Assembly: GCA_003152195.1 (NCBI GenBank)
Contig: PLZN01000357.1
Coordinates: 37,457 to 87,112, forward strand
Reading direction: 5' to 3'
DNA: 49,656 bases
DNA from: Acidobacteriaceae bacterium
GTDB lineage: Bacteria > Acidobacteriota > Terriglobia > Terriglobales > Acidobacteriaceae
How positions within the stretch are numbered: the first letter of the stretch is position 1; each line of letters opens with the position of its first letter. Positions 21,021 to 34,990 of the stretch are shown one piece after another. The notes under the pieces were generated by a model. The model was not told the DNA's origin, did not search any database, and worked only from the letters and a program-made list of their open reading frames with translations. The position numbers were made by a program, and so were the translations under genes.

Positions 21021-21048
21021 TTATTCCATTTCTTACTAAGGAGAAACC

Positions 21049-21414
21049 ATGGCAGTTTCAGGAGCAATCATCGATTACACAGGTGCGGCGGGAGAGCGTA
21101 ACTTTACCGTCTTCATCCAGCTTACCTTTAGCGGTAGTTTCACCACCGGCGGAGATCCGCTCAACTTAGCGACACTGACCAATCCGAACGGCCTCGATGT
21201 CGAGGGCGTCTTCGAGCTTCCGCTGTCCTTGGGCCCGTCGGTTTATCTGGAGGATATCGGCGGGTATTATGTGCAGCCGAAGGTTTCGGGCTCGACCGTG
21301 AATGCATTCCTTATTAACGTGTATGCACCGGGCGGATCGATCGTCTCCGGAGCGTACAACACGGCTGTCACAAGCGGCAACGTGATTCTCACCATGCAGA
21401 AGCGGCGCGTCTAA
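21049..21414 (+). CDS. Small hypothetical virion protein
   Basis: SD aaggagaaacc precedes the ATG. 121 aa, beta-rich. Confidence 0.55.
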   Translation: MAVSGAIIDYTGAAGERNFTVFIQLTFSGSFTTGGDPLNLATLTNPNGLDVEGVFELPLSLGPSVYLEDIGGYYVQPKVSGSTVNAFLINVYAPGGSIVSGAYNTAVTSGNVILTMQKRRV

Positions 21415-21499
21415 GAGCTGAAACCGCAGGTCCTTCCACTACGATTCGCTCCGGCCGGGATGACAAATTGGTGTGCGCATTTGAGCGACAGGACACTCG

Positions 21500-24463
21500 A
21501 TGAACTTTGAAGGCTTCATCCCGCACGAGTTCACTCGCTTTGGTGGGCTCGTAGACAATGACGATCCGACCGTGCTGCCTATGGGCGTTGCGGCTGTCTG
21601 CAGGAACTGCAGATTTCAGCTTACGACCGTGGCCACGCGGTACGGCCTGCAGACGGTCATGCAGGGGCCAAACCAGGTCCCTATCTCCGGCCTGGCTTCT
21701 TTGATTTATACCCCGGAGAATCCCGGCGAGACACTCTTCCAGGTACCGATGGTCTTCGATACAGACGGCTATCTGCTGGTCGAGAGGCCGACAGGCAGCG
21801 GGAGGCTGGTGCGTGTGCAAGGGCCGCTGGTGAGCCAGCCGGCGAACGCGCACGCGATCGTGACCGAGGCTTATAACAGAGCCCTGATCGCGTACTCGGA
21901 CCTGAAGACGCCGTCGGCTCCCATCAACGTCTATGGGCTGAGCACGGAGGATCTGGACCCGTACGGGCAGAAACCTCTCGGCGCCTCCTGGCTCCCGTCC
22001 ACGGCATATGTCGTGGGCGAGCACGTGCAACCGAATGCCGCGGGTGGGAATGGACACCTCTACCGATGCAGCGTGGCGGGGACCACGTCCGCCTCAGAAC
22101 CAGTTTGGCCGCTCACGGAAAACGCGACGGTTACGGATGGTGGGGTAATCTGGGAAGAGCTGACCCCGGTGCTGGTAAACAGGCTGCCCGCGCCCAATTC
22201 CCCGCAGCCCAGCAGGGTGGCAAGCGGCGGAGCTTTCGCCGCGGGCCGCGATGTCTACCTGGAGATGACCTACGTCAACGCGCAGGGAGAGTCGATTGCC
22301 TCGGCTCCGGGCATCCTGGTCAACACGAATTTGAATGACGCCGCAAAGTTCACGGCGCCAACCTTATCCAGCCTGGCGGGGTGGATTCGTGGGCTGGCTG
22401 CGGCGTATCGGCCCACCTCCGTCAACGTGTACGAGGCGGACGTTGCCACGGGCGGCGCAGCGCCCTCTTCGGCGAGCTTTGCCGAGGTAGGAACTTTTGC
22501 GCTTGGCGCTACGGTCACGGTGACGACAACGGCTGCTGGGGTTGCGCCGCCATCCTCAAACACGGCTCGGGTTACTCCGGGTGGATTGCAGCCCCCACCA
22601 GCACCTACCATCGAACGCGCATCGGGCTCGGGCAGCTGGGCAGCAGGACGCGATGTCTACGTGATTGCCACCTTCACCAATGCATCGGGGGAGACGCTGC
22701 CGTCGGTTGCCGGAACGCTGATCAACACTATCCTCGATGACGCAGTGCAGGTTCCCATTCCCTCCACGCTGTACCCGATCACGGGTGTGAACCTTTATGA
22801 AGCCGACGTTGCCACCGGAGCGCCCGCACCTGCCACCGACAGCTATGCGTTCGTGGGATCATTTCAGCCGCTGACAACCGCCACGATGACTGCGGCCGCG
22901 AGCGGGCCGGCTCCTCCAGTGGCCAACAGCTCAGGGGCTGCGGGCAATATCGCAGCAGACGCGAGCCCGGGCCTTCGCTATGCCAGCATCGCTTTCACCA
23001 ACCGCAACGGAAACCTGAGCGGCACGGTTCCGGCCTTCACCTCCGTCAGCGTGGATGTACCGGGCTACGAACTGTACATGGCCAACATTCCGATTGGACC
23101 AAGCAACATCATCAACCGCACGATTGGATTCACGGTCGCGGACGGCACGAATGTCGGCCCATTCTTTTACATTCCCTCGGCAACGGTGAGCGCCGGCATC
23201 GCCATGGCGGCGACGGTGATCGGCGACAACACGACATCGACGGCATTCTTCAACTTCACCGATGAGTTTCTGGAGGCAGAGACCTCGACCGACATGACGG
23301 ATCGGCTGCGCTGCGTGGTTCCTCCGGCGGCGGTGGATGTGTACTATTCGCCATCGAACGATCGCGTGGTGCTGAGTGGGGTGGATGGATACGGATCGGG
23401 CCACTACATCTCGCTGGCCGCGGACTCGGAGTCCTACTATGGCGACACCAGCCCGATCCAGGTAGCGAACGGCAATGGACAGCGATGCATCTGCGCCCGC
23501 GAATTTCAGGGAACGCTCTTCTCGCTGAAAGAGCGCTCCGGCTTCACCATCTCGCCCACGGCGACCGATCCTTCCACCTGGTCGGTGCAGCAGCGATGGG
23601 AGGGCGTAGGGCCATGTGGGCCGCGAGCGGTTTGCGTCACCAACGAGTTCCTGTTCTTCGTGCATCGCAGCGGCGCATACGCCTACACGCCCAGTGAAGC
23701 GCAGCCTAAGCTCATGACCAAGGAGATCCCTACCCTGTGGCAGACCATCAACTGGGATTACCAGCATGTGATCTGGTGCTGCGTGGATGAAGAGAACAAG
23801 GAGATCCGGATTGGCATCCCGGTGGGCAGCGCGACGGTGCCCAACCAGACACTGACCATGAACTACATGGAGGGCATGTCGGGGCCCATCCACTTCAGCC
23901 AGTATGCGGGTCGAGAGGTCGCCATGGGCGCGGCACGCAAGTGGAGCCTGGATGATGTGGCCGGATCAATGGCCGTGCGCTGTGAGCGCCAGTTGCCCGG
24001 GAGTGCCTCGCCGTTTGGATCCCTGCGGCAGTCTCAGCTGCTGATCGCCTCCTCGTCGCCCGATGGGACGGTGCAGATGATTGCGACCGGCGTTTATAAC
24101 GACAACGGCCGCGGGATCACCTGCCAGTACGAGACCACCAGCACGCAGGACTTGATGGATGTCTCCATGCTGGGCGGCGTCAGCATCAATGCGCTGGGCC
24201 AGGGTTCGATGAGCGTATCCGTCATGGTGGCGAGAAGCTATGCGAACTCTCAGAACTCCGGGGGCAGCGCCGAGATCAAATTGGCGCCCTTCCCGCTGAC
24301 GCCGGAAAATTGGAGAGGCTACGACGGCGGCGCGAGGGGACAGAATGAGCGCTTTCGCATGCGCTTCACCAACGGAGCGATCGCGAACGCCTGGTTTGCG
24401 CTCAAGTATTGCAGCCTGTTTACGCGCCCGCTCTACACGGGCAGGAGCGGCGATGGCGCTTAA
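21500..24463 (+). CDS. Large virion protein (tail/nozzle-like) with three internal ~110-130-aa repeats
   Basis: 987 aa. Three repeats (~22190-23200) share AAGRDVY-x5-[FY]-x-N-x2-GE[ST], and the first two also share VN[LV]YEADVATG. The motif YRCSVAGTTSASEPVWP...DGGVIWEEL is common in phage tail proteins. Confidence 0.65.
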   Translation: MNFEGFIPHEFTRFGGLVDNDDPTVLPMGVAAVCRNCRFQLTTVATRYGLQTVMQGPNQVPISGLASLIYTPENPGETLFQVPMVFDTDGYLLVERPTGSGRLVRVQGPLVSQPANAHAIVTEAYNRALIAYSDLKTPSAPINVYGLSTEDLDPYGQKPLGASWLPSTAYVVGEHVQPNAAGGNGHLYRCSVAGTTSASEPVWPLTENATVTDGGVIWEELTPVLVNRLPAPNSPQPSRVASGGAFAAGRDVYLEMTYVNAQGESIASAPGILVNTNLNDAAKFTAPTLSSLAGWIRGLAAAYRPTSVNVYEADVATGGAAPSSASFAEVGTFALGATVTVTTTAAGVAPPSSNTARVTPGGLQPPPAPTIERASGSGSWAAGRDVYVIATFTNASGETLPSVAGTLINTILDDAVQVPIPSTLYPITGVNLYEADVATGAPAPATDSYAFVGSFQPLTTATMTAAASGPAPPVANSSGAAGNIAADASPGLRYASIAFTNRNGNLSGTVPAFTSVSVDVPGYELYMANIPIGPSNIINRTIGFTVADGTNVGPFFYIPSATVSAGIAMAATVIGDNTTSTAFFNFTDEFLEAETSTDMTDRLRCVVPPAAVDVYYSPSNDRVVLSGVDGYGSGHYISLAADSESYYGDTSPIQVANGNGQRCICAREFQGTLFSLKERSGFTISPTATDPSTWSVQQRWEGVGPCGPRAVCVTNEFLFFVHRSGAYAYTPSEAQPKLMTKEIPTLWQTINWDYQHVIWCCVDEENKEIRIGIPVGSATVPNQTLTMNYMEGMSGPIHFSQYAGREVAMGAARKWSLDDVAGSMAVRCERQLPGSASPFGSLRQSQLLIASSSPDGTVQMIATGVYNDNGRGITCQYETTSTQDLMDVSMLGGVSINALGQGSMSVSVMVARSYANSQNSGGSAEIKLAPFPLTPENWRGYDGGARGQNERFRMRFTNGAIANAWFALKYCSLFTRPLYTGRSGDGA

Positions 24464-25544
24464 GGTTAACCTGGCGCAGATCAACTCCGCGGCCAGGGGA
24501 AACAGCGATTTGCGGGAGACCCTGACCGGCATTCATCTGGCGCTGCAATCCCTCTACGCGCAGACGGGCACTGTACCGCTGCAGAAGATAGACGCGACCG
24601 CGACCGCCTTTACCTCACCACCGGCGCCTTCGCAGCTTGCAGTGAGCGGGGCGAATGGGAGCTTCACCGTCTCCATCGCCACGCCGCAGAACGCCTCGGG
24701 AGCCGCCGCGCCGCGCAACGCGACCAACGCGCCTATCTACCAGGAGATATCAAGCTCTCCGGTGGCCAACTTTGTCTCGGGAGTAGCAACTTACCCAGTC
24801 AGCACAAATACGAGTTACGTCTTCCCTAACCCGGGTGTGACCCTCTACTGGCGGCTGCGCTCGAGCTATAACCAGCAAAACTGGACCAGCTATATCGCTC
24901 AGCCGGGAGCAGTCAGCTCCGGCTTGATGAGCTCAGCGGCGACGGCGAGCAATCTCTCCCTCAACCAGTCGAACTACGCGACCGTGGACTCGGTCGCCAA
25001 TGGCAGCACGGCAACGGTGCGCATCTACGGCTCAGGTGGGGTCGGCAGTTCGTGGACCTCGATACTGGGCAGCAGTTCCCAGGTGATTGCCTCGGGATCC
25101 ATTATGAATGTCGCTTACGCGACCAATGGGTTCGTGGTGTGGGATGGGCAGAAGTATCAGCTCAAGCCACAACTGGCGCAGACGTTTCCTGATGCCTGGG
25201 TGCCAGTGGGAAAGATATCGGTCATTGCCAACGGGAGCGGCCTGGTGCTGCCGGTGATTCATGCCGTAGTGACCGGGGGCGCGATCGTCGCCTACCAGAT
25301 CATCAACCCTGGCAACGGGCTCACGGCGGCACCCGCGTTGACCATTACGGATAGCTCCGGCAGCGGCGCGACCGCTACGGCGGTGGTGTCGGCCGGCGCG
25401 GTGACGCAAGTCAACCCAGGAAGCGCGGGCAGCGGCTACTCCAGCACACCCACGGTGACCGCCTCCGGCGGAGTGAGCGGCGGCGCCGCCGGCGGTGGCG
25501 GAGCAACCGGCAACAACGGGGGGAGGCTCTACGCGGATGTATAG
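24453..25544 (+). CDS. Hypothetical virion protein (fibre-like, Gly-rich C-terminus)
   Basis: Internal ATG at 24453 overlaps the previous gene by 11 nt. 363 aa, Ser/Thr/Asn-rich, ending GGVSGGAAGGGGATGNNGGRLYADV. Confidence 0.55.
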   Translation: MALKVNLAQINSAARGNSDLRETLTGIHLALQSLYAQTGTVPLQKIDATATAFTSPPAPSQLAVSGANGSFTVSIATPQNASGAAAPRNATNAPIYQEISSSPVANFVSGVATYPVSTNTSYVFPNPGVTLYWRLRSSYNQQNWTSYIAQPGAVSSGLMSSAATASNLSLNQSNYATVDSVANGSTATVRIYGSGGVGSSWTSILGSSSQVIASGSIMNVAYATNGFVVWDGQKYQLKPQLAQTFPDAWVPVGKISVIANGSGLVLPVIHAVVTGGAIVAYQIINPGNGLTAAPALTITDSSGSGATATAVVSAGAVTQVNPGSAGSGYSSTPTVTASGGVSGGAAGGGGATGNNGGRLYADV

Positions 25545-25797
25545 CCTGCACGAGCAGTATGTGGACATGGCGAGCGGCTTTCATGTGATCGAGCTGCGCG
25601 ACGAGCGGGGCCATCGGCACCTGATACAGATTGCCATTGGCCTAGACTGCTGCCCGGCATGCGGAGCGGTCCATCCCAAGGACAACCTCGAAGCCCTGGA
25701 CCCGGCGGCCGCTATCGCCGGCGTGAACGAGGCGCTGAATACGTCGCAGCGGCAGATGCTTACCTATGCCGGCAAGCATGGGCTAAGAGTGAGATGA
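25537..25797 (+). CDS. Small hypothetical protein (Cys pair CCPAC)
   Basis: ATG 25537 with SD gggggagg upstream; overlaps the previous stop. 86 aa. Confidence 0.5.
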   Translation: MYSLHEQYVDMASGFHVIELRDERGHRHLIQIAIGLDCCPACGAVHPKDNLEALDPAAAIAGVNEALNTSQRQMLTYAGKHGLRVR

Positions 25798-26210
25798 GGC
25801 GCATCACGCTGCGTCAAGCGACCCGGGAAGACTGGCCGGCGATTCAGCGATTGCACCTGGAGCATCAGGCCGCGCAGGGAACCAATTACGAATTGCCTGA
25901 CCTGTTCGGGCGCTCGATCGCCATCGCCCTGGTGGGTGTGGAAGCGAGCGGAACGGTCAGGAACTGTATCTACGTGGAAACGATCGCGGAGTTGCGCTTT
26001 GTCGGATGCGACCCCAAGGCGACCGCGTTCTGCCGCCGGGAGATCGATGGGCTTAGTTACGTTTTGAAGCTGCATGGTTTTCGCTGGTTGGAGTGCTTCG
26101 TGCCCCGGCAACTCAAGCCAATGATCCAGAAACCATTGCGGCGGGCGGGGTTCGTTTGTGTCGATCGCGAGTTAGCCCATTTCGCCAAGGACCTGAGGGG
26201 GAAAGCATGA
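25794..26210 (+). CDS. Possible GNAT-like acetyltransferase (weak)
   Basis: ATGA overlap with the previous gene. It opens MRRITLRQATREDWPAIQRLHLEH, like many GNAT proteins, and is 138 aa. A clear acetyl-CoA loop (Q/RxxGxG/A) is not visible. Confidence 0.35.
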   Translation: MRRITLRQATREDWPAIQRLHLEHQAAQGTNYELPDLFGRSIAIALVGVEASGTVRNCIYVETIAELRFVGCDPKATAFCRREIDGLSYVLKLHGFRWLECFVPRQLKPMIQKPLRRAGFVCVDRELAHFAKDLRGKA

Positions 26211-26322
26211 TCCCGATCTCCTGCCACGCAGCACCTGGACAGATCCGCGTGCGAGCCTTTCATTAAGGAAAGGCGCATGAAACGTACCAGCACCACCAAC
26301 CTCCACAGGAGATCGGGATGAG
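26211..26322 (+). promoter_or_regulatory. 12-bp long-range inverted repeat covering the SD/ATG of gene 26318, plus a coupled 14-codon leader ORF
   Basis: tcccgatctcct (26211-26222) is the exact reverse complement of aggagatcggga (26307-26318). The ORF atg aaa cgt ... gga tga (26277-26321) has its own SD (aaggaaagg), and its stop overlaps the downstream ATG (ATGA). Confidence 0.4.
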
Positions 26323-26884
26323 CAGAGGCCAATCCACGCAAGCATTCAACACGGGGTCGGACGAGAACGCAACCAACTTTGGCAACGCGCAATCGGCCTT
26401 CGGCTCGACGGACAATGCCATCGGCAACTACAACAACCAGCTGGCAAATTTCGTCTCCGGCAATCCCTATACAAAGGGAGGCGAGTACGACCAGACCATC
26501 AACACTGGCCTGGCGAATGTATCCGATGCGGGCGCGAACTCGCTCCAGGGTGCGCTGCAATCGCAGGCCCGGCGAACGGGCCAGAACAGCGCCGCCGATG
26601 CGGCGACGGCGGCTGCCGAAGCGCAGCAGAGCACGCGTGACTTATCCAGCGACTTAGCCAATGCTCAGCAGAAGCGCATCGCCGGCGAGGCCGGCTACAA
26701 CCAAACGGCGCTGGGCGCATCCGCGTTGCCTATCCAAGCGAACCAGGCGCTCTACGGCACATCTTCGAATGCGGCTGAAACCGATTTGGGCGACGAAGCC
26801 CACGCGGCACAAACGCCCAGCTTCTGGGATGAAGTTGGCAACAGCGTTGCCGGCAACCTGGGCAAGGCTGCAGGAAAACTATAG
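26318..26884 (+). CDS. Low-complexity Gln/Asn/Ala-rich protein (internal virion/ejection-protein-like)
   Basis: 188 aa. Its composition and its position after the tail genes suggest this role. No domain recognised. Confidence 0.5.
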   Translation: MSRGQSTQAFNTGSDENATNFGNAQSAFGSTDNAIGNYNNQLANFVSGNPYTKGGEYDQTINTGLANVSDAGANSLQGALQSQARRTGQNSAADAATAAAEAQQSTRDLSSDLANAQQKRIAGEAGYNQTALGASALPIQANQALYGTSSNAAETDLGDEAHAAQTPSFWDEVGNSVAGNLGKAAGKL

Positions 26885-26886
26885 CG

Positions 26887-27321
26887 ATGGCCAACGATCA
26901 GGATTACAGCACTTTTGTTTCCGGTGAAGAGGAAGCAAGCAGGCTACTCCGAAAGATCCTGTCGCCGGCGGAGGCGCAGAGCCTGGTGCTGCCACCGCCC
27001 AACCACGCTCCCGTGAGCGGCCCGGGAGAATCCACTCCGCTGACCGGCAACCTGGCAAAGCCGCCCTCGCAGGCGACTCCGTCGCGGGCTCCTGCTTACG
27101 ATGAGGTCAAGCCGGCAACACCAGAGCAGAGTACGCCGGTGCGCAGCGGCCTGGCAGGATACTTCCTGAATGCGGCGGCACCCGTGGCGACACCTGACCG
27201 AAGCGGCGATCCCCAGTATGTGAAGGTTTCTTCACAAGGCCAGGTGGGTTATCTACCAAAGGCTAACCTTCGACTGGCTCAGCAGATAGATAGGAATCTC
27301 GAAGTGTTGGATGAGGGGTAA
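26887..27321 (+). CDS. Hypothetical Pro-rich protein
   Basis: ATG lies 2 nt after the previous stop. 144 aa. Confidence 0.5.
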   Translation: MANDQDYSTFVSGEEEASRLLRKILSPAEAQSLVLPPPNHAPVSGPGESTPLTGNLAKPPSQATPSRAPAYDEVKPATPEQSTPVRSGLAGYFLNAAAPVATPDRSGDPQYVKVSSQGQVGYLPKANLRLAQQIDRNLEVLDEG

Positions 27322-27400
27322 ACGGAGAAGGTGGCGACCTGAATGCGCGAGGCCCGACGCCTAGGTCGGGCCTCCGTGACAAGACACTTCTGGCTGCGGA

Positions 27401-27751
27401 CTACCGGTGATCCCCATCATGATGATCCCAATCGTGGTGGTCGCCGTGATCTTCATGGTCCCAGTGACCCTCATGGAGGGCCCAGCCCTGCTGGTAGTGA
27501 TCATAGTGCGGGTGGTTCCAATATGCTCCCGCGTAAGGCGGTCTCCGCCAAACTCCCGGGACCCACACATACCTTCCCCCTACGGGGTTCCAATATCCAT
27601 CGACCCAAGCGTAGCCCGGACCTGGTAGAGGAGGGCGCACCTCATAGCGAATCGGTGGTGGCGCAACGCCGATATATACACCAACGCCTGCAAAGGCCGG
27701 AGCCGTAAGTGCAGAAGCCAAGATCAAACTAGCTATCCATTTCGTCTTCAT
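27401..27751 (-). CDS. Secreted YXWGXW-repeat protein with His/Asp-rich C-terminus
   Basis: MKTKWIASLILASALTAPAFA signal peptide. GYAWVDGYWNPVGGRYVWVPGVW matches the YXWGXW repeat family. The tail is HEGHWDHEDHGDHHDWDHHDGDH. It is one of only two predicted minus-strand genes (with the small basic ORF at 28923-29045) inside the late block. Confidence 0.7.
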   Translation of the reverse strand: MKTKWIASLILASALTAPAFAGVGVYIGVAPPPIRYEVRPPLPGPGYAWVDGYWNPVGGRYVWVPGVWRRPPYAGAYWNHPHYDHYQQGWALHEGHWDHEDHGDHHDWDHHDGDHR

Positions 27752-27865
27752 CGTTCCCTCCGTACAAGTACCTTTCATACAGTGCTAACACGGCCTAAAG
27801 CGAGAGGTTTGCTACCCAAGTACGTCAGTAATCTAACTAAGCACTTAACTCCCAGGCAACCTTCT

Positions 27866-28876
27866 ATGAAAGCAACCATGGCGGCACATCCACTCCATAT
27901 GCTTGGCTTTGAGGCCATTGCTTCTCCGGAGCGAAGGAACTTTTGCTCGCTTGCCGAATTGGGGTTCGAACCCACCGTAACGCACACGATCGGTGCGCAG
28001 GCAGAGGTCGCGGCACGCAGAACAGCGCGCGAGCCACGCCTGTTGCCGCAGATGCAACAACTCATTGTGCGCCCGCAGGTGGAGGGCGCCATCGAACTCA
28101 ATTCTGGCCGCAAGATCGTGCAGCCAACGGATAACCCCGCGATCAACCAGGCGCTGGCCACCGCTGCGATGCCGGCATACAAGTCAAGGCTGGAAAAGGT
28201 GCTCAGGGATATCCCAGGTGCGACACTGGCGGCGACCCGCGATGCCAAGAAGCCCGCACGCCTGGCGGAGAAAATTTCCGGGCAGGGGCAGCCGGCAGAG
28301 ACGGTAAGCGACTACGGCGCAGCACAGGTCGCGGTCGATTCGCCGCAGGCGAAGAATGCGGTGGTGGCCGCCGTGAAGCAGCATTTTCCCGTGTTGCGGC
28401 AGCAGGACAACTTCGCCCTCGGCGATCCTGAATATCGCTATCGCAGCTACTCCCTCCAGGTGCAGATGCCCAATGGGGCATCGGAGGAACTACAGATCGT
28501 CCCGCGAGAAGTCTTCGAGGCAAACCAGCAGGAACACCACGACTACAAAAAAGCGCGCAATGCGGAGCTCGCGGGTAAGAGCGCCGGCCAGGTGAGGGCA
28601 GCCGCGCGGGCAATCAACGATGCGGCCATGGACCGATTCAACTCCAGAAATGGAGTTAGCAGCGCGGTCATTACCGCGCCTGGAAATTCCTGGGCGGATG
28701 GAGTGGTTAAGGGCTCCAGGGTAAGGTTGACCGACGGCACTCCGGCAAGAGTTGTCTACGTGGATCCGAACATGCGAATCGCGCGCGTGCGCACGGAAGA
28801 CGGACGTAACGTTACCCTGCGGAGGAAAGATCTGCGCGCCCCGGTAAATCGGGCGCGGCCCTCTGCGTCGCGTTGA
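27866..28876 (+). CDS. RelA/SpoT-homologue (RSH)-like nucleotidyltransferase-fold protein with a C-terminal SH3/KOW-like domain
   Basis: Four colinear blocks match small alarmone synthetases. TRDAKKPARLAEKI corresponds to R.Ks..S...K. VSDYGAAQVAV corresponds to i.D..G.R. GDPEYRYRSYSLQV corresponds to P...GYRS.H. EELQIVPREVF...EHHDYKK corresponds to vEiQirT......H..YK. Several catalytic positions are substituted. The start is uncertain (GTG 27782, ATG 27866 or 27878). Confidence 0.5.
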   Translation: MKATMAAHPLHMLGFEAIASPERRNFCSLAELGFEPTVTHTIGAQAEVAARRTAREPRLLPQMQQLIVRPQVEGAIELNSGRKIVQPTDNPAINQALATAAMPAYKSRLEKVLRDIPGATLAATRDAKKPARLAEKISGQGQPAETVSDYGAAQVAVDSPQAKNAVVAAVKQHFPVLRQQDNFALGDPEYRYRSYSLQVQMPNGASEELQIVPREVFEANQQEHHDYKKARNAELAGKSAGQVRAAARAINDAAMDRFNSRNGVSSAVITAPGNSWADGVVKGSRVRLTDGTPARVVYVDPNMRIARVRTEDGRNVTLRRKDLRAPVNRARPSASR

Positions 28877-28922
28877 CGGCGAGCCGCTGCAATAGAATTT
28901 GTTTGCGATCAGCCCTTCGCGG

Positions 28923-29045
28923 TCATACCTTCGGGGGCGGCCCACCGAGGCGGGTGTCTTCCCCGCGCTTGCGTCCAGGCTCTACTTTGGGCTTAGGTTT
29001 AGGTGCCTTCTTCGTTTCGCGCTTGCCTTTGTCTTTGCTTCCCAT
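28923..29045 (-). CDS. Very small basic protein (40 aa), doubtful
   Basis: MGSKDKGKRETKKAPKPKPKVEPGRKRGED... This Lys-rich mini-ORF could be spurious. Confidence 0.3.
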   Translation of the reverse strand: MGSKDKGKRETKKAPKPKPKVEPGRKRGEDTRLGGPPPKV

Positions 29046-29150
29046 GAAAGCAAATATTACACAAATAGCTTGGCAAAGCGAGATGCTGCCACCTCGCCGT
29101 ACCCCCCAAGGTCCGTCCAACAAAGAAATTCCAGATAAGGACTCTTCAAG

Positions 29151-29468
29151 ATGAGCAAGCAGCCCAGGTCAGCAGGAAACCAGGCCCCTCTTTGGGAGGA
29201 AACCGAGGAGGAAGTGGGCAAGGGTCGTCCCGTGCCCTGGCCGGAGGTCGGCCGCGATCAGATCCTGGGCAGGTATTGGGAGTTGGCCAACCTGGATCCG
29301 GAGGAGACCAAAGGAAACATCACGGGGCAGATCAAGGCGCTCGATTCGATTTGTGAGCAGCTGCCTCTGGTTCCAGTTGAGAAGCATAAGCGCGTACGCA
29401 CGCTGGATGTTTACCAGGCGGGATGGATGAACAGGTCCCGAGGGGAAAGTCAATCGGAAAAAACTTGA
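29151..29468 (+). CDS. Terminase small subunit candidate
   Basis: 105 aa, directly upstream of TerL. The segment ILGRYWELANLDPEETKGNITGQIKALDSICEQL resembles TerS helical cores. Called mostly from position. Confidence 0.45.
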   Translation: MSKQPRSAGNQAPLWEETEEEVGKGRPVPWPEVGRDQILGRYWELANLDPEETKGNITGQIKALDSICEQLPLVPVEKHKRVRTLDVYQAGWMNRSRGESQSEKT

Positions 29469-29614
29469 TTTATCCCACGTACGCCGACGAGGGTGTTAAG
29501 AAACCGGTCCTGACGGCGTGGAAGGGCAGGGACGGTTGGCATGGCAAACCGGACGGGTGCCCCACCTGGCTTTGCTGCAAGAACAAACCATCTTTGCCCT
29601 GTCGATAGACCGTC

Positions 29615-31201
29615 ATGACCACATTTGATGAGGAGACTGTCTATCGCTGGATGCCAGCCACGGCCGCGCAACAAGCAGCACTCGATTCGGAAGCGGACAT
29701 CCTGCTCTTCGGAGGTTCTGCCGGGTCGCTCAAAACCGAGACCATGTTGATGGACGCGGTGCAGGAATACGAAAACCCCAACCTGCGCGCCATTGTTTTC
29801 CGCTCCTCCTTCGTGGAGATGACGGACATCGTCGACAAGACACGACGGCTCTACGCGCCCCTGGGCGGCGTCTTCGTCGGTTCTCCTAAATGGACGTGGA
29901 GCTTTCCTTCGGGGGCGACGATCCGCTTCGCTTACATGAAGACGGACGACGACGTGTGGAAGTACCTGGGGCCGCGCTATTCCTTCATTGGCTTTGACGA
30001 ATCGACGCTGCACACAGAAAAGCAAGTACGCAACATCCTGGGCCGCTTGAGCTCGACCGACGCGAGTCTGCGGCTGCGCATGAGGCTCACTTCAAATCCC
30101 GGCAATGTGGGCGCCTCCTGGCACCAGACGTTATTTCTGCGCGGCCACTGCCCGGTGCACAACCGGCACGACTCGTCGCAACCGGCCCAACTCTATCGTG
30201 ACCGCTGCTGGCCATCCGATGGAGCCGCAATACCCTTCTCCGTTGCCTTTATCCCGGGCAAACTTTCCGATCACAATCTATTGGACGTCCACTACACCAA
30301 GCGCCTGCACATGATGTCAGGCGGCGCAGCGGCAGCGATGGAGCAGGGTTGCTGGTGTACGCTCGAAGGGGCCTACTTCCCTTTTGTGCATGCAGGCATC
30401 GTGCGCCCGTTGGCCGAGGCCGGCGTGGAGTGGTGGCACAACCACTTCCTCTCCATCGATTATGGCTATGGGAAGTCCTCTTCCTCGGTGGGGCTTTACG
30501 TCCGCGGTCCAGCGGAGGTGCGGCAGAAGGTAGAGATACACGGCGTCGATTCGCGCCTGCTGGAGCGGGATGATGGCCCGGAGTTTCCTGAAGGGCGTAT
30601 CCGCAAGATCGGCGAGCTGGTGGTGCCCCACGTGCCCGCGTATGAGCTGGCAAAGATGGTGGTGGATGCCTTTATCAAGCCCGATGAAAACGGGCAGAGG
30701 CGGCGCATTGTGGCCGCCTATCTTGACCCTGCCAACTTCAAGGAGATCGGCGACGGCCATACCATTGCCGACCAGATCAACGAGGTTCTGGAGCCGTGGG
30801 AGATCGTCTGCGAGCGGGCATCGAATGATAGGCTGGGCGGGTGGCAGTTGCTTTACCGGATGCTGCGCACGGGCGAGTTCGAGATCACCGATGTGTGCCC
30901 GCGGAGCTTTGAAGCCCTGCGCACACGCATGCATGACGATACAAGGCCCGGAGACATTCGCAAGATTGCGGGCGATCCGCTGGACGACGTTGCCGATGAG
31001 ACACGGTACGCGCTGTACACCTTTATTCAGCAGGCGACGCAGCCGCGAGAGTTGATGCTCCAGCACGCAGTGCGTGGGCTTGATTTGGGATCCGCTGCGA
31101 TCCGCTGGCAGCAGAAGGCAGAAGAGCTGGACCGTGAAGAGGCGCCGATCCGCACCACGGGTAGGATGGGGTTGGGGCGGCGGGGAGGCAGGCGGTTTTG
31201 A
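29615..31201 (+). CDS. terL: Terminase large subunit
   Basis: Walker A-like LLFGGSAGSLKTE, Walker B FIGFDEST, then a C-terminal nuclease-type region (…SIDYGYGKSSS… / …DDVADETRYALY). 528 aa. Confidence 0.85.
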   Translation: MTTFDEETVYRWMPATAAQQAALDSEADILLFGGSAGSLKTETMLMDAVQEYENPNLRAIVFRSSFVEMTDIVDKTRRLYAPLGGVFVGSPKWTWSFPSGATIRFAYMKTDDDVWKYLGPRYSFIGFDESTLHTEKQVRNILGRLSSTDASLRLRMRLTSNPGNVGASWHQTLFLRGHCPVHNRHDSSQPAQLYRDRCWPSDGAAIPFSVAFIPGKLSDHNLLDVHYTKRLHMMSGGAAAAMEQGCWCTLEGAYFPFVHAGIVRPLAEAGVEWWHNHFLSIDYGYGKSSSSVGLYVRGPAEVRQKVEIHGVDSRLLERDDGPEFPEGRIRKIGELVVPHVPAYELAKMVVDAFIKPDENGQRRRIVAAYLDPANFKEIGDGHTIADQINEVLEPWEIVCERASNDRLGGWQLLYRMLRTGEFEITDVCPRSFEALRTRMHDDTRPGDIRKIAGDPLDDVADETRYALYTFIQQATQPRELMLQHAVRGLDLGSAAIRWQQKAEELDREEAPIRTTGRMGLGRRGGRRF

Positions 31202-31288
31202 GTGGCGGGCTTGGTGTGTGCGGGGTCCGGGTAGTGATGCAGTTTGACAAAAGCTGCTAGAGTTCTATTCCCGAGTGCCGATAGGCTA

Positions 31289-31654
31289 TCAGGCTACGTT
31301 AAAAACCTTCGCCCCGGCGGGTGGAGAGAACTCATCGATTTCCTGTGCAATGCCAAACTGCACGGCTTCTGTAGCGGAAAGGTAGAGATCATGATGGTCA
31401 AGTTGAGCCCACAGATTATCTGGCCGGCCGGCGTTGTACAGCGTTAACTGAATCGGCAAAGATTTGAAAAAGCTATGGAGAAAAATTCCGTCGCTCACGC
31501 TTCCGCCAAGCGATTGAAATAGCAAATGAACATGCTCTACATTGTTGTTCATGCATACTGCCATGGTGCTACAAAGCTTATTGGCATTGTCCTGATTGAT
31601 TCCCCCACAAAAGAAGCCATAAACATCCGGTGGGAACGTTGATTCGTTTGCCAT
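31289..31654 (-). pseudogene. ClpP/crotonase-fold protease-like gene lacking the catalytic core (apparent internal deletion)
   Basis: ATG 31654 with SD aaggaag. The N-terminal half aligns with ClpP (…FFCGGINQDNANKL…LLFQSLGGSVSDGIFLHSFF…LTLYNAG). The sequence then jumps straight to the ClpP C-terminal helix (LYLSATEAVQFGIAQEI). About 85 aa holding the Ser-His-Asp residues are absent. Low-GC context. Confidence 0.45.
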
Positions 31655-31993
31655 CTGTCTTCCTTTAGCAAGCAGCATGAAGTCTATTGCCCAACCTATG
31701 GCGTGACCGCCGATCAGATAGGAAACGCAGAGCTTTGTGTCTGCGTCGATGGCCTTCAAGGTCCAAGCACTGCCCAACCCTCTTGTTTTTTCTCGACCGA
31801 TACGTTCTTCGCCTTACCCCCAAAGAACGCCCAAATTTCATTGCACTAAAAAACGATGGACGCGAAGCAGCAAGTTGAGCGCAGTACGCCTTGCGACGCC
31901 AGTCATTCGACAAGTTGCTCTAAGAGTGGCTCCCTCAACCAATGCCGCGATCGCTTGAACTCGCTTTGCTGTGGCGATTCGCTGGAAGGTCAC
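31655..31993 (-). pseudogene. Decayed DDE transposase remnant (HTH plus start of the catalytic domain)
   Basis: Three minus-strand frames carry successive pieces. The first is VTFQRIATAKRVQAIAALVEGATLRATCRMTGVARRTALNLLLR (HTH). The second is CNEIWAFFGGKAKNV. The third is WTLKAIDADTKLCVSYLIGGHAIGWAIDFM. The pattern L.EG.S.R....tgv...T...LL / DEIWsF..aK.kn / WtwtA.D.dsKL is typical of a transposase family often annotated as IS1/IS1595-like. The remnant is truncated at 31655. Confidence 0.5.
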
Positions 31994-32071
31994 TAAAAAG
32001 ATAGTACATTAATAACCGACAAACCGCAAATACTATTGTCCTTTTTATTTGAAATAAACTATATTTATCTC

Positions 32072-33232
32072 ATGTTATTTAAATCGGAGGACATTCGACA
32101 ATCCGAGAAGGAAGTAATCAGCAAGATCGAAGACGCTAGGAAAGCGCTGAAGTACAACTTGGCGACACCACGCCGATGGAGAGGGTTGCTTCGGCGCAAT
32201 ACTTTCGCTCGCGCCATACGTGGTTCAAACAGCATTGAGGGCTACAACGTTACGGCGGAAGATGCGATCGCCGCTGCCGAGGGAGAAGACCCGCTGGACG
32301 CAGACCGTGAGACATGGCTTGCGGTTACGGGGTACCGCACGGCGATGACCTTCGTCCTTCAGCTCGCGAAAGACCCGAATTTTGTCTACAGCGAGGGCTT
32401 CATTCGCAGCCTGCATTTCATAATGCTTCAGCATGACCTTAAGAAGAATCCAGGAAACTGGAGGCCCGGGACGGTTTATGTCAGGGATGAGGCACGGAAC
32501 GAAGTGGTGTATGAAGGCCCTGAGGTTGAGATGGTTCCTGGCCTAATCGAGGAATTGATCGAATACCTTAACGCCGAGGATGAACGCCCGCATGCGCTGA
32601 TTAAGGGAGCAATGGCACATCTCAACTTGGTGATGATTCACCCGTTTTCGGACGGTAATGGGCGTATGGCTCGCTGTTTACAAACGCTTGTACTGGCGCG
32701 TGAGGGAATACTGGAATCAGAGTTTTCCTCTATCGAGGAATATTTAGGACGAAACACGCAGGAATACTACAACGTTCTCGCCAAGACTGGGGAAGGCTCA
32801 TGGCACCCACGACACAGCACACGAGGGTGGATTCAGTTCAATTTAACGGCTCATTTTCGACAGGCAGTCACCTTACTCAATAGAACAAGACTAATCGACA
32901 TGCTTTGGCAAGAGATCGAGCAGATAATTGCTCGACAGGGACTTCCAGATCGTGTCACCTACGCGATTTGTGACGCAGCTATTGGCCACCGTGTACGAAA
33001 CGCCAGCTATCGTAATCTTGCGGAAGTAAACGACGTGACAGCCAGTCGTGATCTTAAAACAGCCGTTGATGCAGGCCTTCTGATTCCAATCGGTGAACGA
33101 AGAGGACGATTGTATGGCGGATCACCCCAGATAAGAGCAATATTCGACAAAATGAAGCGAGAACACATCAGACCGATACCCGATCCTTTTCTTCCAGAGG
33201 CGCAGCAATTGCTATTGCCTAATCCTTTGTAG
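32072..33232 (+). CDS. Fic family protein (class II, N-terminal inhibitory helix) with C-terminal winged-helix-like domain
   Basis: Canonical HPFSDGNGRMAR active-site loop. An upstream SNSIEG matches the [ST]xxxE[GN] auto-inhibition motif. The promoter region 31990-32070 is AT-rich. The ATG at 32072 is preferred to the TTG at 32036. Confidence 0.85.
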   Translation: MLFKSEDIRQSEKEVISKIEDARKALKYNLATPRRWRGLLRRNTFARAIRGSNSIEGYNVTAEDAIAAAEGEDPLDADRETWLAVTGYRTAMTFVLQLAKDPNFVYSEGFIRSLHFIMLQHDLKKNPGNWRPGTVYVRDEARNEVVYEGPEVEMVPGLIEELIEYLNAEDERPHALIKGAMAHLNLVMIHPFSDGNGRMARCLQTLVLAREGILESEFSSIEEYLGRNTQEYYNVLAKTGEGSWHPRHSTRGWIQFNLTAHFRQAVTLLNRTRLIDMLWQEIEQIIARQGLPDRVTYAICDAAIGHRVRNASYRNLAEVNDVTASRDLKTAVDAGLLIPIGERRGRLYGGSPQIRAIFDKMKREHIRPIPDPFLPEAQQLLLPNPL

Positions 33233-33341
33233 CTTCCCTCACGATCCGCGCAGCAGCTTGACTCACATCTTCGCTGGTCCTCTTTCTTGCGGCGTCGCGA
33301 TTCAGCGTCCCGTACTCGCCTGTACATATCATTCCCTCTCA

Positions 33342-34682
33342 CTAGAAAACTTGCAGGTACACGCGTCGTAGTTCAGAGTGTGCGGTGCCCAGCGGGCCGT
33401 TGCGCGCTTTGGCGACGATTAATTCGCCCTTGCCTGTCAGCGATGGGTCTTCGCGATTGTAGTATTCCTCGCGATGCACAAAGAGGACCATGTCCGCATC
33501 CTGCTCGATGGAGCCCGACTCGCGGAGGTCGGCGAGAATCGGCCGCCTGTCCGCTCGCTTATAAAGTTCGCGGTATCAATTGCGATAGCAGAATCACAGG
33601 CACGTCGAGACGCTTCTCCATTCCCTTCATCGCACGGCTGATTCCCGCAACCACTTGCTCGCGGTTTTCCATTCCCTTCCGCTCAGCCGCCATCAACCCC
33701 AGGTAGTCGACGACCACCAGATCCAGCCCGGCACTCGCTTGCAGCCGCGCTGCCTTGGCTTCGATCAACGCAGCGGTCTGGCCTGGTTGATCGTCGATGT
33801 ATAAAGGCGCATCGATGATCTCGGCCAGCGCGCGGAGATAGTATTGCTTCTGCACTTCACTCAGCTTTCCATGGCGATGCGCTTGCAGGTCCACCTGGCC
33901 TAGAGCGCAGCACATGCGGTCGATGAGCGCCTTGCTGGGCATCTCCAGGCTGAAAACGCCGTCGTCTTGCCCGACGTAGCAACATGCACGGAGATGTTGC
34001 CGGACACCGCGGTCTTTCCGATCGAAGGCCGCGCGCCCGGAATGGTCAAGTCCTTCGGCTGGAAGCCGGCTGTCAGGTGATCTAGACACCAGAAGCCGGA
34101 GGTAACGCCGGTCAGCCTCGCGCTCTGTTCAAAACTTTTGTCGATGCACGGATAATGACACTTCACATATTCGGCTACCGAGGCCAGGTCAGAGGTGATC
34201 GCTCTACCGGCAATCCAGCGGAAGGCAGACTCGACCTCGGCCAGCACCTCCTCAGCGGAGCCGGATTGGTCACCAGCCAGCGCGCCTACCCTGTCGCTCT
34301 CCGCGATGGTTTGCCGCAGGAGAGATTTGTCCTTCACGATGCAAACGTATTCTTCGATGGAGAGGCGTCGGGGCAGACCCTCGGTCAGGCTGGCGAGGTA
34401 GGCCACTCCGCCAATCGCGGGCAACTCCTTGTTACGCTGTAACTGCTCGGCCAAGGTCACAATGTCGACGCTCTTGCCATCGATCAGCAGCTCGCCCATG
34501 CGACTGAAGACGCGGCGATGCGAATCCAAGGAAAGGTCCGCGGCCTCGATGCGGCCTGCCACCTCCTGGTAATGGCCGTTGTTCAGCGGGATCGTGCCCA
34601 GGATCGCCGCCTCCGCGGCCACGCTGGCGGGCGGCGAGCTCACAGTCGCCGCCAGTCCCGCCCGCACTGCCGGGGATGACAT
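33342..34682 (-). pseudogene. dnaB: Replicative DNA helicase (DnaB family) disrupted by two 1-nt frameshifts
   Basis: The first piece (34682 to ~33945) carries AEAAILG…, the N-terminal domain and Walker A GARPSIGKTA. The second piece (~33945 to ~33577, shifted frame) reads VFSLEMPSKALIDRM…VVVDYLGLM…ILLSQL. The third piece (back in the first frame) reads [30 protein letters not shown]…[14 protein letters not shown]. The junctions lie at about 33940-33950 (run gttttc) and 33572-33580. Confidence 0.8.
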
Positions 34683-34990
34683 AAGGCCAACGCTGCCGCA
34701 GATTGCGATCGGCGCCACTCGGCAGTTTCCGGCGCATCGGGCGGCAGGAAGGTGACGATGTCCTTGGTAGCGTTGCTGTAGAGAAAAGTCATCTCCACGT
34801 CGGCATAATCGAGCACTACCACCGTGCGTGAGCTTGTAACTTTGCGCGCGTACTTTACATCCCCCGTCTGCACCCGGCGGATCAGCGTTTGCCGCACGTG
34901 CCTGCCCACTTCCAGACCGAAGCGCTGCTGAGCGCGGTCTTTCACAAGCCGCCGGCACGCGTGGGAGCGGACAGGCTGTTCGGGGCTCAT
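34640..34990 (-). CDS. Hypothetical protein (replication-module accessory)
   Basis: 116-aa ORF, ATGA-coupled to the upstream HTH gene. Its 3' end overlaps the dnaB start by ~40 nt. Confidence 0.4.
   Translation of the reverse strand: MSPEQPVRSHACRRLVKDRAQQRFGLEVGRHVRQTLIRRVQTGDVKYARKVTSSRTVVVLDYADVEMTFLYSNATKDIVTFLPPDAPETAEWRRSQSAAALALCHPRQCGRDWRRL

What the first reader, a model, noticed from the sequence alone, without database searches (positions are those of the whole stretch)
27866..28876. Divergent RelA/SpoT-like (RSH) nucleotidyltransferase with a C-terminal SH3/KOW-like domain, in an accessory (moron-like) position of the prophage
**Seen in the sequence**
- Four colinear blocks reproduce the small-alarmone-synthetase core: R.K....L..K; .D.G....; P..-Y-R-S; and E-[LI]-Q-I ... 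E-H-H-x-Y-K-K.
- Key positions are altered: there is no Arg in the G-x-R block, GYRSxH becomes RYRSYS, and EIQIRT becomes ELQIVP.
- The C-terminal ~110 aa (…VKGSRVRLTDGTPARVVYVDPNMRIARVRTEDGRNVTLRRKDL) looks like a small beta-barrel.
- The gene has its own lower-GC upstream region. It is divergent from a minus-strand gene and lies between the virion genes and the terminase.

**Established knowledge**
- Prophage-encoded RSH enzymes act as toxic effectors in phage defence. Examples are toxSAS toxin-antitoxin systems; fused CapRel, which senses incoming capsid protein and pyrophosphorylates tRNA; and mycobacteriophage Phrann gp29.
- Related enzymes make (p)ppApp.

**Inference**
This could be a fused, self-regulated toxSAS-like defence or exclusion gene with changed chemistry, or an ejected virion enzyme. 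No separate antitoxin gene is evident.
Basis: partly seen in the sequence, partly recalled or inferred. Interest (0 to 1): 0.65.

Follow-up and report, generated by a model that had tools for sequence, protein, structure and literature searches.

The report
Phage-derived RelA/SpoT-like enzyme with basic barrel
The gene encodes a genuine but divergent alarmone-synthetase-fold enzyme that is the shrunken remnant of a giant multi-enzyme 'polyvalent' phage protein, and it sits in a phage-derived gene cluster that a whole genus of peat-soil Acidobacteria has inherited vertically, so it is not a stray defence gene.

Summary
ORF 27866-28876 has a RelA/SpoT synthetase fold: Pfam PF04607 E=1e-4 (below threshold), 26 of 27 wider-family members hit PF04607, and the top 47 Foldseek PDB hits of the AF2 model (pLDDT 88.6) are all RelA/SpoT-family (RSH) synthetases. 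A ~45-aa very basic Tudor/SH3-like barrel follows.

- **Active site:** the Mg-Asp (D149), catalytic Glu (E208), G-loop Tyr (Y192) and basic ATP-site residues are invariant. 'E-x-Q-I-V-P' is a family trait. Q154 and R191 are peculiar to this clade.
- **Not a moron:** its GC matches the cluster and dN/dS is 0.145. Together with the upstream 144-aa ORF it forms one gene in a relative, so it was split by insertion of the minus-strand WXXGXW gene.
- **Origin:** in related 50-66 kb viral contigs the same slot before TerL holds 3000-4300-aa polyvalent proteins (RSH plus 2H, GGDEF or SNF2).
- **Inheritance:** the cluster is syntenic in 63 of 67 species of one Acidobacteriaceae genus and in none of 141 other genera sampled. 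Its dS equals that of flanking host genes.
- **Core loss:** at least three species deleted the RSH core in frame but kept the N-peptide plus barrel.

Best reading: an active pyrophosphokinase cargo module, probably made late and possibly delivered with DNA. The toxSAS fused-TA reading is poorly supported.

The parts
27866..28876 (+). RSH-like gene (336 aa; the start conserved in homologues is 27878)
27878..27985 (+). N-terminal peptide specific to this clade, with two 'HPLxxLGFE / LxxLGFE' motifs. It is predicted disordered and is retained when the catalytic core is deleted.
28079..28651 (+). RelA/SpoT synthetase-fold core (aa 72-262). Key residues: R125, K128, R132, K136, D149 (28310), Y192 (28439), E208 (28487), H224, Y227. 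Clade-specific residues: Q154 and R191.
28652..28702 (+). Flexible linker (aa 263-279). pLDDT is below 60 and dN/dS is 0.41.
28703..28837 (+). Tudor/SH3-like beta-barrel (aa 280-324), pI 11.6, dN/dS 0.10. It is a mobile module found at varying positions in family members.
26887..27321 (+). 144-aa ORF. It is the detached N-terminal part of the ancestral gene: aa 1-104 match aa 1-105 of the fused 412-aa relative P0121.
27349..27374 (.). 10-bp GC-rich hairpin between the 144-aa ORF and the convergent WXXGXW gene. It looks like a bidirectional terminator.
   Evidence: read from the sequence
27401..27778 (-). Secreted WXXGXW-repeat protein gene inserted into the ancestral gene. This is the truly moron-like element.
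27779..27865 (.). 47%-GC divergent intergenic region. It must hold the promoters of the RSH gene and the WXXGXW gene.
29151..29468 (+). Conserved 105-aa ORF between the RSH gene and TerL. A small-terminase-like role is assumed from position only; no family hit was found.
29615..31201 (+). Large terminase subunit

Best explanation
The gene encodes a probably active, divergent RelA/SpoT-homologue pyrophosphokinase. It would transfer pyrophosphate from Mg-ATP to the 3'-OH of a purine nucleotide or an RNA 3' end. The catalytic core is joined by a flexible linker to a very basic Tudor/SH3-like barrel.

It is the reduced, stand-alone descendant of the RSH module of a phage polyvalent protein. Related viral contigs carry a 3000-4300-aa multi-enzyme protein with this domain in the same slot, after the virion-like genes and just before the terminase.

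In this lineage the remnant gene was further split by insertion of an opposite-strand secreted-protein gene. The cluster it belongs to is a phage-derived element that one Acidobacteriaceae genus has inherited vertically.

The N-terminal peptide plus barrel act as a conserved scaffold, and the RSH core is a dispensable cargo or effector module.

**Inferred, not shown:** the protein is made with the late genes. The basic barrel may bind nucleic acid, and the protein may leave with the packaged DNA. It would then act in the receiving cell, or late in the producing cell, by making an alarmone-type nucleotide or blocking RNA 3' ends.
For: **Fold and active site**
- PF04607 E=1e-4 over the whole profile; 26 of 27 relatives hit it.
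- The family profile hits SAS and Rel in the PDB.
- AF2 pLDDT 88.6; Foldseek's top 47 PDB hits are all RSH synthetases.
- D149, E208, H224, Y227, R125, R132, K136 and G118 are invariant in 100 representatives at <=50% identity, K128 is in 98 of them, and position 192 is Y or F throughout. The Asp and Tyr correspond to residues required for activity in toxSAS (10.1101/2021.04.30.441581; PMC7229694).
- dN/dS is 0.14 for the core and 0.10 for the barrel.

**Polyvalent-protein origin**
- The domain sits in 2000-4000-aa proteins with ART-PolyVal, GNAT, 2H, SNF2, Zeta or GGDEF domains.
- The best BFVD fold matches are ~1000-1300-aa phage proteins, four of them named DdrB-like, RelA/SpoT or ART-PolyVal.
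- IMG/VR contigs keep the order 987-363-86-138-188-[giant RSH protein]-TerL.
- This matches the class described in PMC5512222.

**Gene split**
- P0121 (412 aa) equals the 144-aa ORF plus the RSH protein. It lies in a tight same-strand operon without the WXXGXW gene.

**Cargo and scaffold**
- Three species have in-frame deletions of the core, with at least two different junctions. They keep intact ORFs of N-peptide plus barrel, and the rest of the cluster is conserved.
- The barrel has pI 11.6.

**Expression**
- Metatranscriptome contigs 90-95% identical cover the RSH, virion-like and TerL genes.
Against: - There is no biochemical evidence and no virion proteomics, so packaging and delivery rest only on analogy with polyvalent proteins.
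- This protein itself scores below the Pfam gathering threshold.
- Q154 replaces the Arg that, from my memory of the SAS1 structure, stacks on the ATP adenine. R191 replaces the G-loop Gly. Activity or substrate may therefore differ or be weakened.
- The acceptor cannot be predicted: the literature reports no sequence signature that separates tRNA-using from nucleotide-using RSH enzymes.
- The metatranscriptome contigs are from relatives, and DNA carry-over is not excluded.
- Several species have lost the core, which shows it is not required for the cluster.
Confidence: 0.55

Rival explanations
1. Late-acting enzyme in the producer cell. It is an alarmone or (pp)pApp synthetase expressed with the late genes. 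It would reprogramme or shut down the producing cell (growth arrest, resource diversion, lysis timing) and would not be packaged.
For: - It has the same fold and conserved catalytic residues.
- It lies in the late gene string next to the terminase.
- It has acquired its own promoter region after the split.
- The core is dispensable in some species, as expected for a modulator.
Against: - Its orthologous position is occupied by polyvalent proteins, which are predicted to act on delivery (PMC5512222).
- The retained N-peptide plus basic barrel scaffold has no obvious role in a purely cytoplasmic regulator.
Confidence: 0.22
2. One reading: a fused, self-inhibited toxSAS (CapRel-like) or toxin-antitoxin-type RSH. 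It would give the lysogen abortive-infection or superinfection-exclusion defence.
For: - The RSH fold matches FaRel and CapRel among the fold hits.
- The Mg-Asp and G-loop Tyr needed for toxSAS toxicity are present.
- It has a C-terminal extra domain and a basic surface (pI 10.1).
- Its promoter region is separate from the late operon.
Against: - PADLOC gives no hit.
- SAS (RelP, SAS1), Rel and Tas1 structures score better than FaRel or CapRel.
- The C-terminal domain is a Tudor/SH3-like barrel that is absent or elsewhere in about 70% of relatives.
- Relatives are embedded in polyvalent proteins of phage contigs, not in defence islands.
- The position is syntenic and the composition matches the cluster.
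- The downstream 105-aa ORF stays when the core is deleted.
Confidence: 0.12
3. A catalytically dead fold retained as a structural or adaptor protein of the particle or the packaging machinery.
For: - Two canonical positions are changed in this clade (Q154, R191).
- The N-peptide plus barrel survives without the core, which suggests the scaffold is the selected part.
Against: - All metal-binding, catalytic and phosphate-binding residues are invariant across very divergent relatives, and the core has dN/dS 0.14.
- Half of the wider family also has Gln at position 154.
Confidence: 0.06

Closest known systems
RelA/SpoT modules of phage polyvalent proteins (Iyer, Burroughs, Anand, de Souza & Aravind 2017, PMC5512222)
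   Same: - The same RSH subfamily domain is embedded in 2000-4300-aa phage proteins together with 2H phosphoesterase, ART-PolyVal, GNAT, SNF2, GGDEF and Zeta domains.
- It occupies the same syntenic slot before TerL.
- The best viral fold matches are such proteins.
   Different: - Here it is reduced to RSH plus barrel (336 aa).
- It is split from its N-terminal part by an inserted gene.
- It resides in a vertically inherited, genus-wide element rather than in a mobile phage.
- Neither this protein nor the polyvalent modules have been tested experimentally.
Small alarmone synthetases RelQ/SAS1 and RelP/SAS2 (PDB 5dec, 6ex0, 6fgk)
   Same: - They are the best solved-structure matches (TM 0.65-0.68 over the whole SAS).
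- They are also the best sequence-profile matches.
- The Mg-Asp, catalytic Glu, G-loop Tyr and H-x-x-Y motif are shared.
   Different: - Sequence identity is 15-19%.
- EIQIRT is ELQIVP, the D-x-x-G-x-R Arg is Gln, and the G-loop Gly is Arg.
- There is an extra conserved N-terminal 'SGRxIxQP' segment and a C-terminal barrel.
- There is no evidence for a tetramer or for allosteric pppGpp control.
toxSAS toxins (FaRel, FaRel2, PhRel/Phrann gp29, PhRel2) and fused CapRel
   Same: - They share the RSH synthetase fold and the catalytic Asp and Tyr.
- They are associated with phages or prophages.
- They have a basic surface, and CapRel also has a C-terminal extra domain.
   Different: - No antitoxin gene and no CapRel-type C-terminal domain is present.
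- Fold scores are weaker than for SAS or Rel.
- The gene is not in a two-gene TA-like locus.
- The gene is syntenic with virion-like and packaging genes.
Tas1 (type VI secreted (p)ppApp synthetase) and the exported Streptomyces SAS (PDB 6ox6, 8vx3)
   Same: They are RSH enzymes used as effectors delivered into another cell. Both are among the top fold hits.
   Different: The delivery route differs, and no immunity gene is seen here. The product is unknown.

Membership tests
RelA/SpoT homologue (RSH) synthetase domain, Pfam PF04607 | Sequence match to the family profile at or above the curated threshold | tested here: inconclusive
   This protein scores 23-24.5 bits against a cut-off of 27. Relatives reach or pass it: P0128 at 27.0 and P0146 at 28.8. 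26 of 27 relatives hit at E<=0.01.
RelA/SpoT homologue (RSH) synthetase domain, Pfam PF04607 | Synthetase fold (mixed beta-sheet flanked by helices) | tested here: met
   The AF2 model has pLDDT 88.6. The top 47 Foldseek PDB hits are all RSH synthetases, with TM up to 0.68.
RelA/SpoT homologue (RSH) synthetase domain, Pfam PF04607 | Mg-binding Asp, catalytic Glu of E-x-Q, acceptor-stacking G-loop Tyr, and basic ATP-phosphate residues | tested here: met
   D149, E208, R125, R132 and K136 are invariant and K128 is in 98 of 100 diverse representatives. Position 192 is Y or F throughout, and Y in this protein.
RelA/SpoT homologue (RSH) synthetase domain, Pfam PF04607 | Arg of D-x-x-G-x-R, Gly of G-Y-R-S, and R-T of E-I-Q-I-R-T | tested here: not met
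   These positions are Q154, R191 and V212-P213. V-P is family-wide. Q154 is shared by 47% of the family. R191 is clade-specific.
Phage polyvalent protein (PMC5512222) | Many (2-15) conflict-related domains in one polypeptide of a phage or conjugative element | tested here: inconclusive
   The window protein has only two modules. Its positional orthologues have 3000-4300 aa with RSH plus 2H, GGDEF or SNF2.
Phage polyvalent protein (PMC5512222) | Packaged and delivered with the DNA | not testable with these tools
   This needs particle proteomics or infection assays.
toxSAS toxin-antitoxin / fused CapRel | Cognate antitoxin gene, or a C-terminal antitoxin domain homologous to the CapRel/PhRel antitoxins | tested here: not met
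   - The C-terminus is a Tudor/SH3-like barrel.
- That barrel is not constantly linked to the core.
- The neighbouring 105-aa ORF persists without the core.
- PADLOC gives no hit.
toxSAS toxin-antitoxin / fused CapRel | Toxicity that depends on the catalytic residues | not testable with these tools
   This needs expression assays.
Moron (accessory gene inserted into a prophage late operon) | Sporadic presence, atypical composition, and own promoter and terminator | tested here: not met
   - GC is 0.616 against 0.603 for the cluster.
- It is present at the same place in 63 of 67 species of the genus.
- It is also at the same place in distant viral contigs.
- The inserted WXXGXW gene is what fits this description.

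The most novel reading that the evidence does not exclude
The cluster would be a host-domesticated, gene-transfer-agent-like particle system fixed in one Acidobacteriaceae genus. The RSH-plus-barrel protein would be its enzymatic cargo. Cells would then send a pyrophosphokinase, bound to the packaged DNA through its basic barrel, into sister cells. There it would make an alarmone or cap RNA 3' ends and so transiently reprogramme the recipient.

A second untested possibility comes from the recurrent pairing of RSH with a 2H phosphoesterase in relatives. The family might act on immune-signalling nucleotides rather than on GDP or GTP.
Probability: 0.12. Interest if true: 0.85.

Novelty: new variant of a known kind. 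Interest (0 to 1): 0.55.

Why it matters
- RelA/SpoT modules of phage polyvalent proteins were predicted in 2017, but I found no experimental study of them in the searches run here. This 336-aa stand-alone version is a tractable entry point to their chemistry: which acceptor is used, and what the E-x-Q-I-V-P and Gln-154 changes do.
- Three natural 'experiments' are available. The gene is split, the core has been deleted in frame in at least three species, and orthologues are giant proteins. Together they separate a conserved scaffold (N-peptide plus basic barrel) from an exchangeable enzymatic cargo.
- The host element is a ~48-kb phage-like cluster kept intact and under purifying selection across a whole genus of abundant peat Acidobacteria. 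It is a candidate domesticated particle system in a phylum for which my one literature search turned up no described example.

Tried and rejected
- PHROGs, NCBIfam and PADLOC scans of the protein gave no hits.
- Single-sequence and shallow-profile searches of PDB sequences found only chance-level matches.
- The first AF2 run used 25 close homologues and was too uncertain (pLDDT 60). A deeper 56-sequence alignment fixed this.
- tblastn of the RSH protein and of the 105-aa ORF against 50,697 isolated phage genomes found no match.
- Pfam and PHROGs gave nothing for the 105-aa, 144-aa, 188-aa, 138-aa, 86-aa and 363-aa neighbours. The small-terminase and GNAT guesses therefore remain untested.
- The consensus promoter scan found no sigma-70-like promoter upstream.
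- The 'HPLxxLGFE' N-terminal motif is not shared with any other ORF of the window, so it is not a common targeting signal there.
- A literature search found no paper reporting a phage RSH enzyme in virions.
- The moron and fused-TA readings were considered and set aside, for the reasons given under the rival explanations.

Full report
**1. The observation**

The ORF 27782/27866-28876 (+) is open. Homologues start at the equivalent of M5 (27878, 'MAAHPL').

Pfam's RelA_SpoT model aligns to residues 127-230 over profile positions 3-111 of 113. The match has E=1e-4 and 23 bits, below the 27-bit gathering score. PHROGs, NCBIfam, PADLOC and a single-sequence PDB search gave nothing.

The match is nevertheless real:
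- A search of 1.84 billion representative proteins found 370 relatives.
- 26 of 27 diverse core segments hit PF04607, best 6.8e-8.
- The family profile hits B. subtilis YwaC (SAS2, 2.4e-4), SAS1 and Rel in the PDB. The D-x-x-G-x-R, G-Y-R-S, E-x-Q-I and H-x-x-Y motifs are in register.
- An AF2 model from close homologues was poor (pLDDT 60), yet its top 34 Foldseek hits were already RSH synthetases.
- With a 56-sequence alignment the model reached pLDDT 88.6 and pTM 0.73. The top 47 PDB hits were then all RSH synthetases: RelP, SAS1, Tas1, an exported Streptomyces SAS, Rel, SpoT, RelA, FaRel and CapRel. TM reached 0.68 when normalised to the SAS.

It spans aa 280-324 and matches Tudor domains and many 55-70-aa actinophage proteins. 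Residues 214-261 are the helical hairpin of the RSH fold, and 263-279 is a floppy linker.

**2. Active site**

I examined 100 representatives at <=50% mutual identity.
- Invariant residues: G118, R125, R132, K136, D149, H224 and Y227.
- Near-invariant: E208 (99 of 100), K128 and R231 (98 each).
- Position 192 is always Y or F.
- D149 and Y192 correspond to the Asp and Tyr whose mutation abolishes toxSAS activity.
- 'E-x-Q-I-V-P' is a family hallmark (P213 in 92%), not decay.
- Position 154, the canonical Arg, is R in 53% and Q in 47%; this clade has Q.
- Position 191, the canonical Gly, is G in 71%; this clade has R.

Across about 42 species the gene has dN/dS 0.145. By region this is 0.14 for the core, 0.10 for the barrel and 0.41 for the linker.

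I therefore expect an active pyrophosphokinase. The acceptor cannot be predicted, because the literature reports no sequence signature separating tRNA-using from nucleotide-using RSH enzymes. The barrel is very basic (pI 11.6) and the whole protein has pI 10.1. This is compatible with nucleic-acid binding, but that is inference.

**3. Where the gene comes from**

The domain occurs inside proteins of 2000-4000 aa. These carry ART-PolyVal, GNAT, 2H phosphoesterase/Acb1-like, DUF6302, SNF2 helicase and Zeta-toxin domains. This is the 'polyvalent protein' class of Iyer et al. 2017, which explicitly lists RelA/SpoT, 2H, GNAT, SNF2 and GGDEF modules in phage-type members (PMC5512222).

The best viral fold matches are ~1000-1300-aa phage proteins; four of the top six are named DdrB-like, RelA/SpoT or ART-PolyVal (E down to 2.5e-9).

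In IMG/VR, 50-66 kb viral contigs keep this window's gene order. Homologues of the 226-, 121-, 987-, 363-, 86-, 138- and 188-aa proteins come first, then a giant ORF, then TerL. The giant ORF carries the RSH domain near residue 500-800. Examples:
- L077: 3693 aa, RSH + 2H + GGDEF.
- L070: 3913 aa, RSH + SNF2.
- L074: 669 aa, 2H + RSH.
- L079: 898 aa, RSH + 2H.

The window gene is therefore the positional orthologue of a polyvalent protein, much reduced.

**4. The gene is split**

A closer relative, P0121 (412 aa), lies in a tight same-strand operon 364-156-86-139-189-[412]-105-TerL with no minus-strand gene. Its residues 1-105 match the window's upstream 144-aa ORF (49% identity). Its residues 97-403 match residues 14-323 of the RSH protein (53%).

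In the window's clade, a segment carrying the secreted WXXGXW-repeat gene (27401-27778, minus strand) split this gene. The segment also carries a hairpin at 27349-27374 and a 47%-GC intergenic region. This explains the 'own upstream region' and the divergent arrangement that suggested a moron. The RSH gene itself has the cluster's GC, 0.616 against 0.603.

**5. The host element**

The RSH protein has relatives in 52 Acidobacteriaceae MAG species of GTDB.
- Whole-genome searches found it in 63 of 67 species of the window's genus (29 of 31 high-quality genomes). It was in none of 141 other genera sampled in the family.
- In about 50 loci the whole neighbourhood is syntenic. This includes the flanking short-chain dehydrogenase and ROK genes on the right. 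An amino-acid permease lies on the left in the window's contig and in L007.
- Pairwise identities of TerL track those of the flanking host genes (rho 0.70-0.72) as well as the two host genes track each other (0.67).
- Median dS is the same for phage-like and host genes (0.92-1.14). All are under purifying selection: TerL 0.074, dehydrogenase 0.063, ROK 0.113.
- No integrase appeared among the called genes with Pfam hits.
- The element starts with DUF1376 and an ECF sigma factor.
- It ends with a second, phage-type DnaB and an SRAP gene. The chromosomal DnaB is elsewhere. The element's copy is broken in the window's genome and in one other genome.

This looks like a vertically inherited, domesticated phage-derived element. 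Whether it makes particles is unknown.

Metatranscriptome contigs from permafrost, 90-95% identical, cover the 987-aa gene, the 86- to 188-aa genes, the RSH gene (28153-28659) and TerL. Relatives are therefore probably transcribed in nature, although DNA carry-over cannot be excluded.

**6. Natural deletions**

In five genomes only the barrel matched. I examined three of them. In each, the cluster is otherwise conserved, but the RSH core is deleted in frame. What remains are intact ORFs of about 79-120 aa made of the 'HPLxxLGFEP' N-peptide plus the barrel, with at least two different junctions. The 105-aa ORF and TerL remain.

So the catalytic core is dispensable cargo, whereas the N-peptide plus barrel is kept for its own sake. 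In the wider family the barrel often sits elsewhere in the same polypeptide.

**7. Verdict**

- The fold and motif observation is confirmed.
- The 'moron' and 'fused toxSAS' readings are not supported.
- The 'ejected virion enzyme' alternative is the better lead, but it rests on analogy.

My best explanation (confidence 0.55) is an active RSH pyrophosphokinase descended from a polyvalent phage protein. It would be made with the late genes, tethered to a basic barrel scaffold, and would act as an effector in the recipient cell or late in the producer cell.

Rivals:
- A producer-cell regulator that is not packaged (0.22).
- toxSAS-like defence (0.12).
- A catalytically dead scaffold (0.06).

It is a new variant of a known kind. 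The kind, RelA/SpoT modules of phage polyvalent proteins, was predicted in 2017, and I found no experimental test of it.

Noticed in passing
window 1-37400 plus about 10.8 kb upstream (L063 9200-20000): The whole ~48-kb phage-like cluster runs from an ECF sigma factor to TerL, then DnaB and SRAP on the minus strand.
- It sits between the same host genes (amino-acid permease; short-chain dehydrogenase and ROK) in about 50 species.
- The RSH marker is present in 63 of 67 species of the genus and in no other genus sampled.
- Its dS equals that of the flanking host genes, and it is under purifying selection.
- No integrase was seen.

It looks like a domesticated, vertically inherited phage-derived element and a GTA-like candidate.
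   Followed up: partly
L096 5590-5829; L097 about 5069-5320 (minus strand); L098 about 5120-5480 (minus strand): In at least three species the RSH catalytic core is deleted in frame. Intact ORFs of about 79-120 aa remain, made of the 'HPLxxLGFEP' N-peptide plus the basic barrel.
   Followed up: yes
window 27401-27778 (-): The secreted WXXGXW-repeat, His-rich protein gene is the inserted element that split the ancestral RSH gene. It is absent from the more distant relative L065, but it is conserved in the 51 of 52 genus loci that span the site (38 of them at 74-88% identity).
   Followed up: partly
window 31260-33300: The low-GC island after TerL (ClpP-like remnant and Fic gene) is peculiar to the window's lineage. 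Its two ORFs (31289-31777 and 32036-33232) have no counterpart in the other ~50 species' loci, apart from one weak ClpP-like hit (34% identity) in L055.
   Followed up: partly
window 33559-34958 (-): The DnaB next to the cluster is a second, element-linked copy. Each genome checked has another, better-scoring DnaB elsewhere. The element's copy is split in the window's genome and in G320 but intact in G346 and G106.
   Followed up: partly
L074 9080-11086; L079 9776-12469; L077 8174-19252; P0129; P0150: In the viral relatives the RSH domain is repeatedly paired with a 2H phosphoesterase (LigT/Acb1-like) in the same polypeptide. One relative also has a GGDEF domain. This suggests a shared nucleotide-signal-related role.
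   Followed up: partly
homologues P0035, P0040, P0048 (alignment A1, columns about 136-171): Three otherwise divergent homologues carry a nearly identical 36-aa in-frame insert (DPDFLYAALDTTASAAFSKESRMRFANATSSPGNPG) in the N-terminal region. It may be a small mobile repeat inserted in frame.
   Followed up: no
L063 12509-13261 (upstream of the window): An ECF-type sigma factor is the first same-strand gene of the cluster. A sigma-70/ECF-type factor also lies upstream in two other genomes' loci (L006, L007). It is a candidate regulator of the late genes.
   Followed up: no
window 21000-31200: Permafrost metatranscriptome contigs 90-95% identical cover several cluster genes, including the RSH gene and TerL. 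Two peat metatranscriptomes from the same study as the best DNA holders showed nothing.
   Followed up: partly
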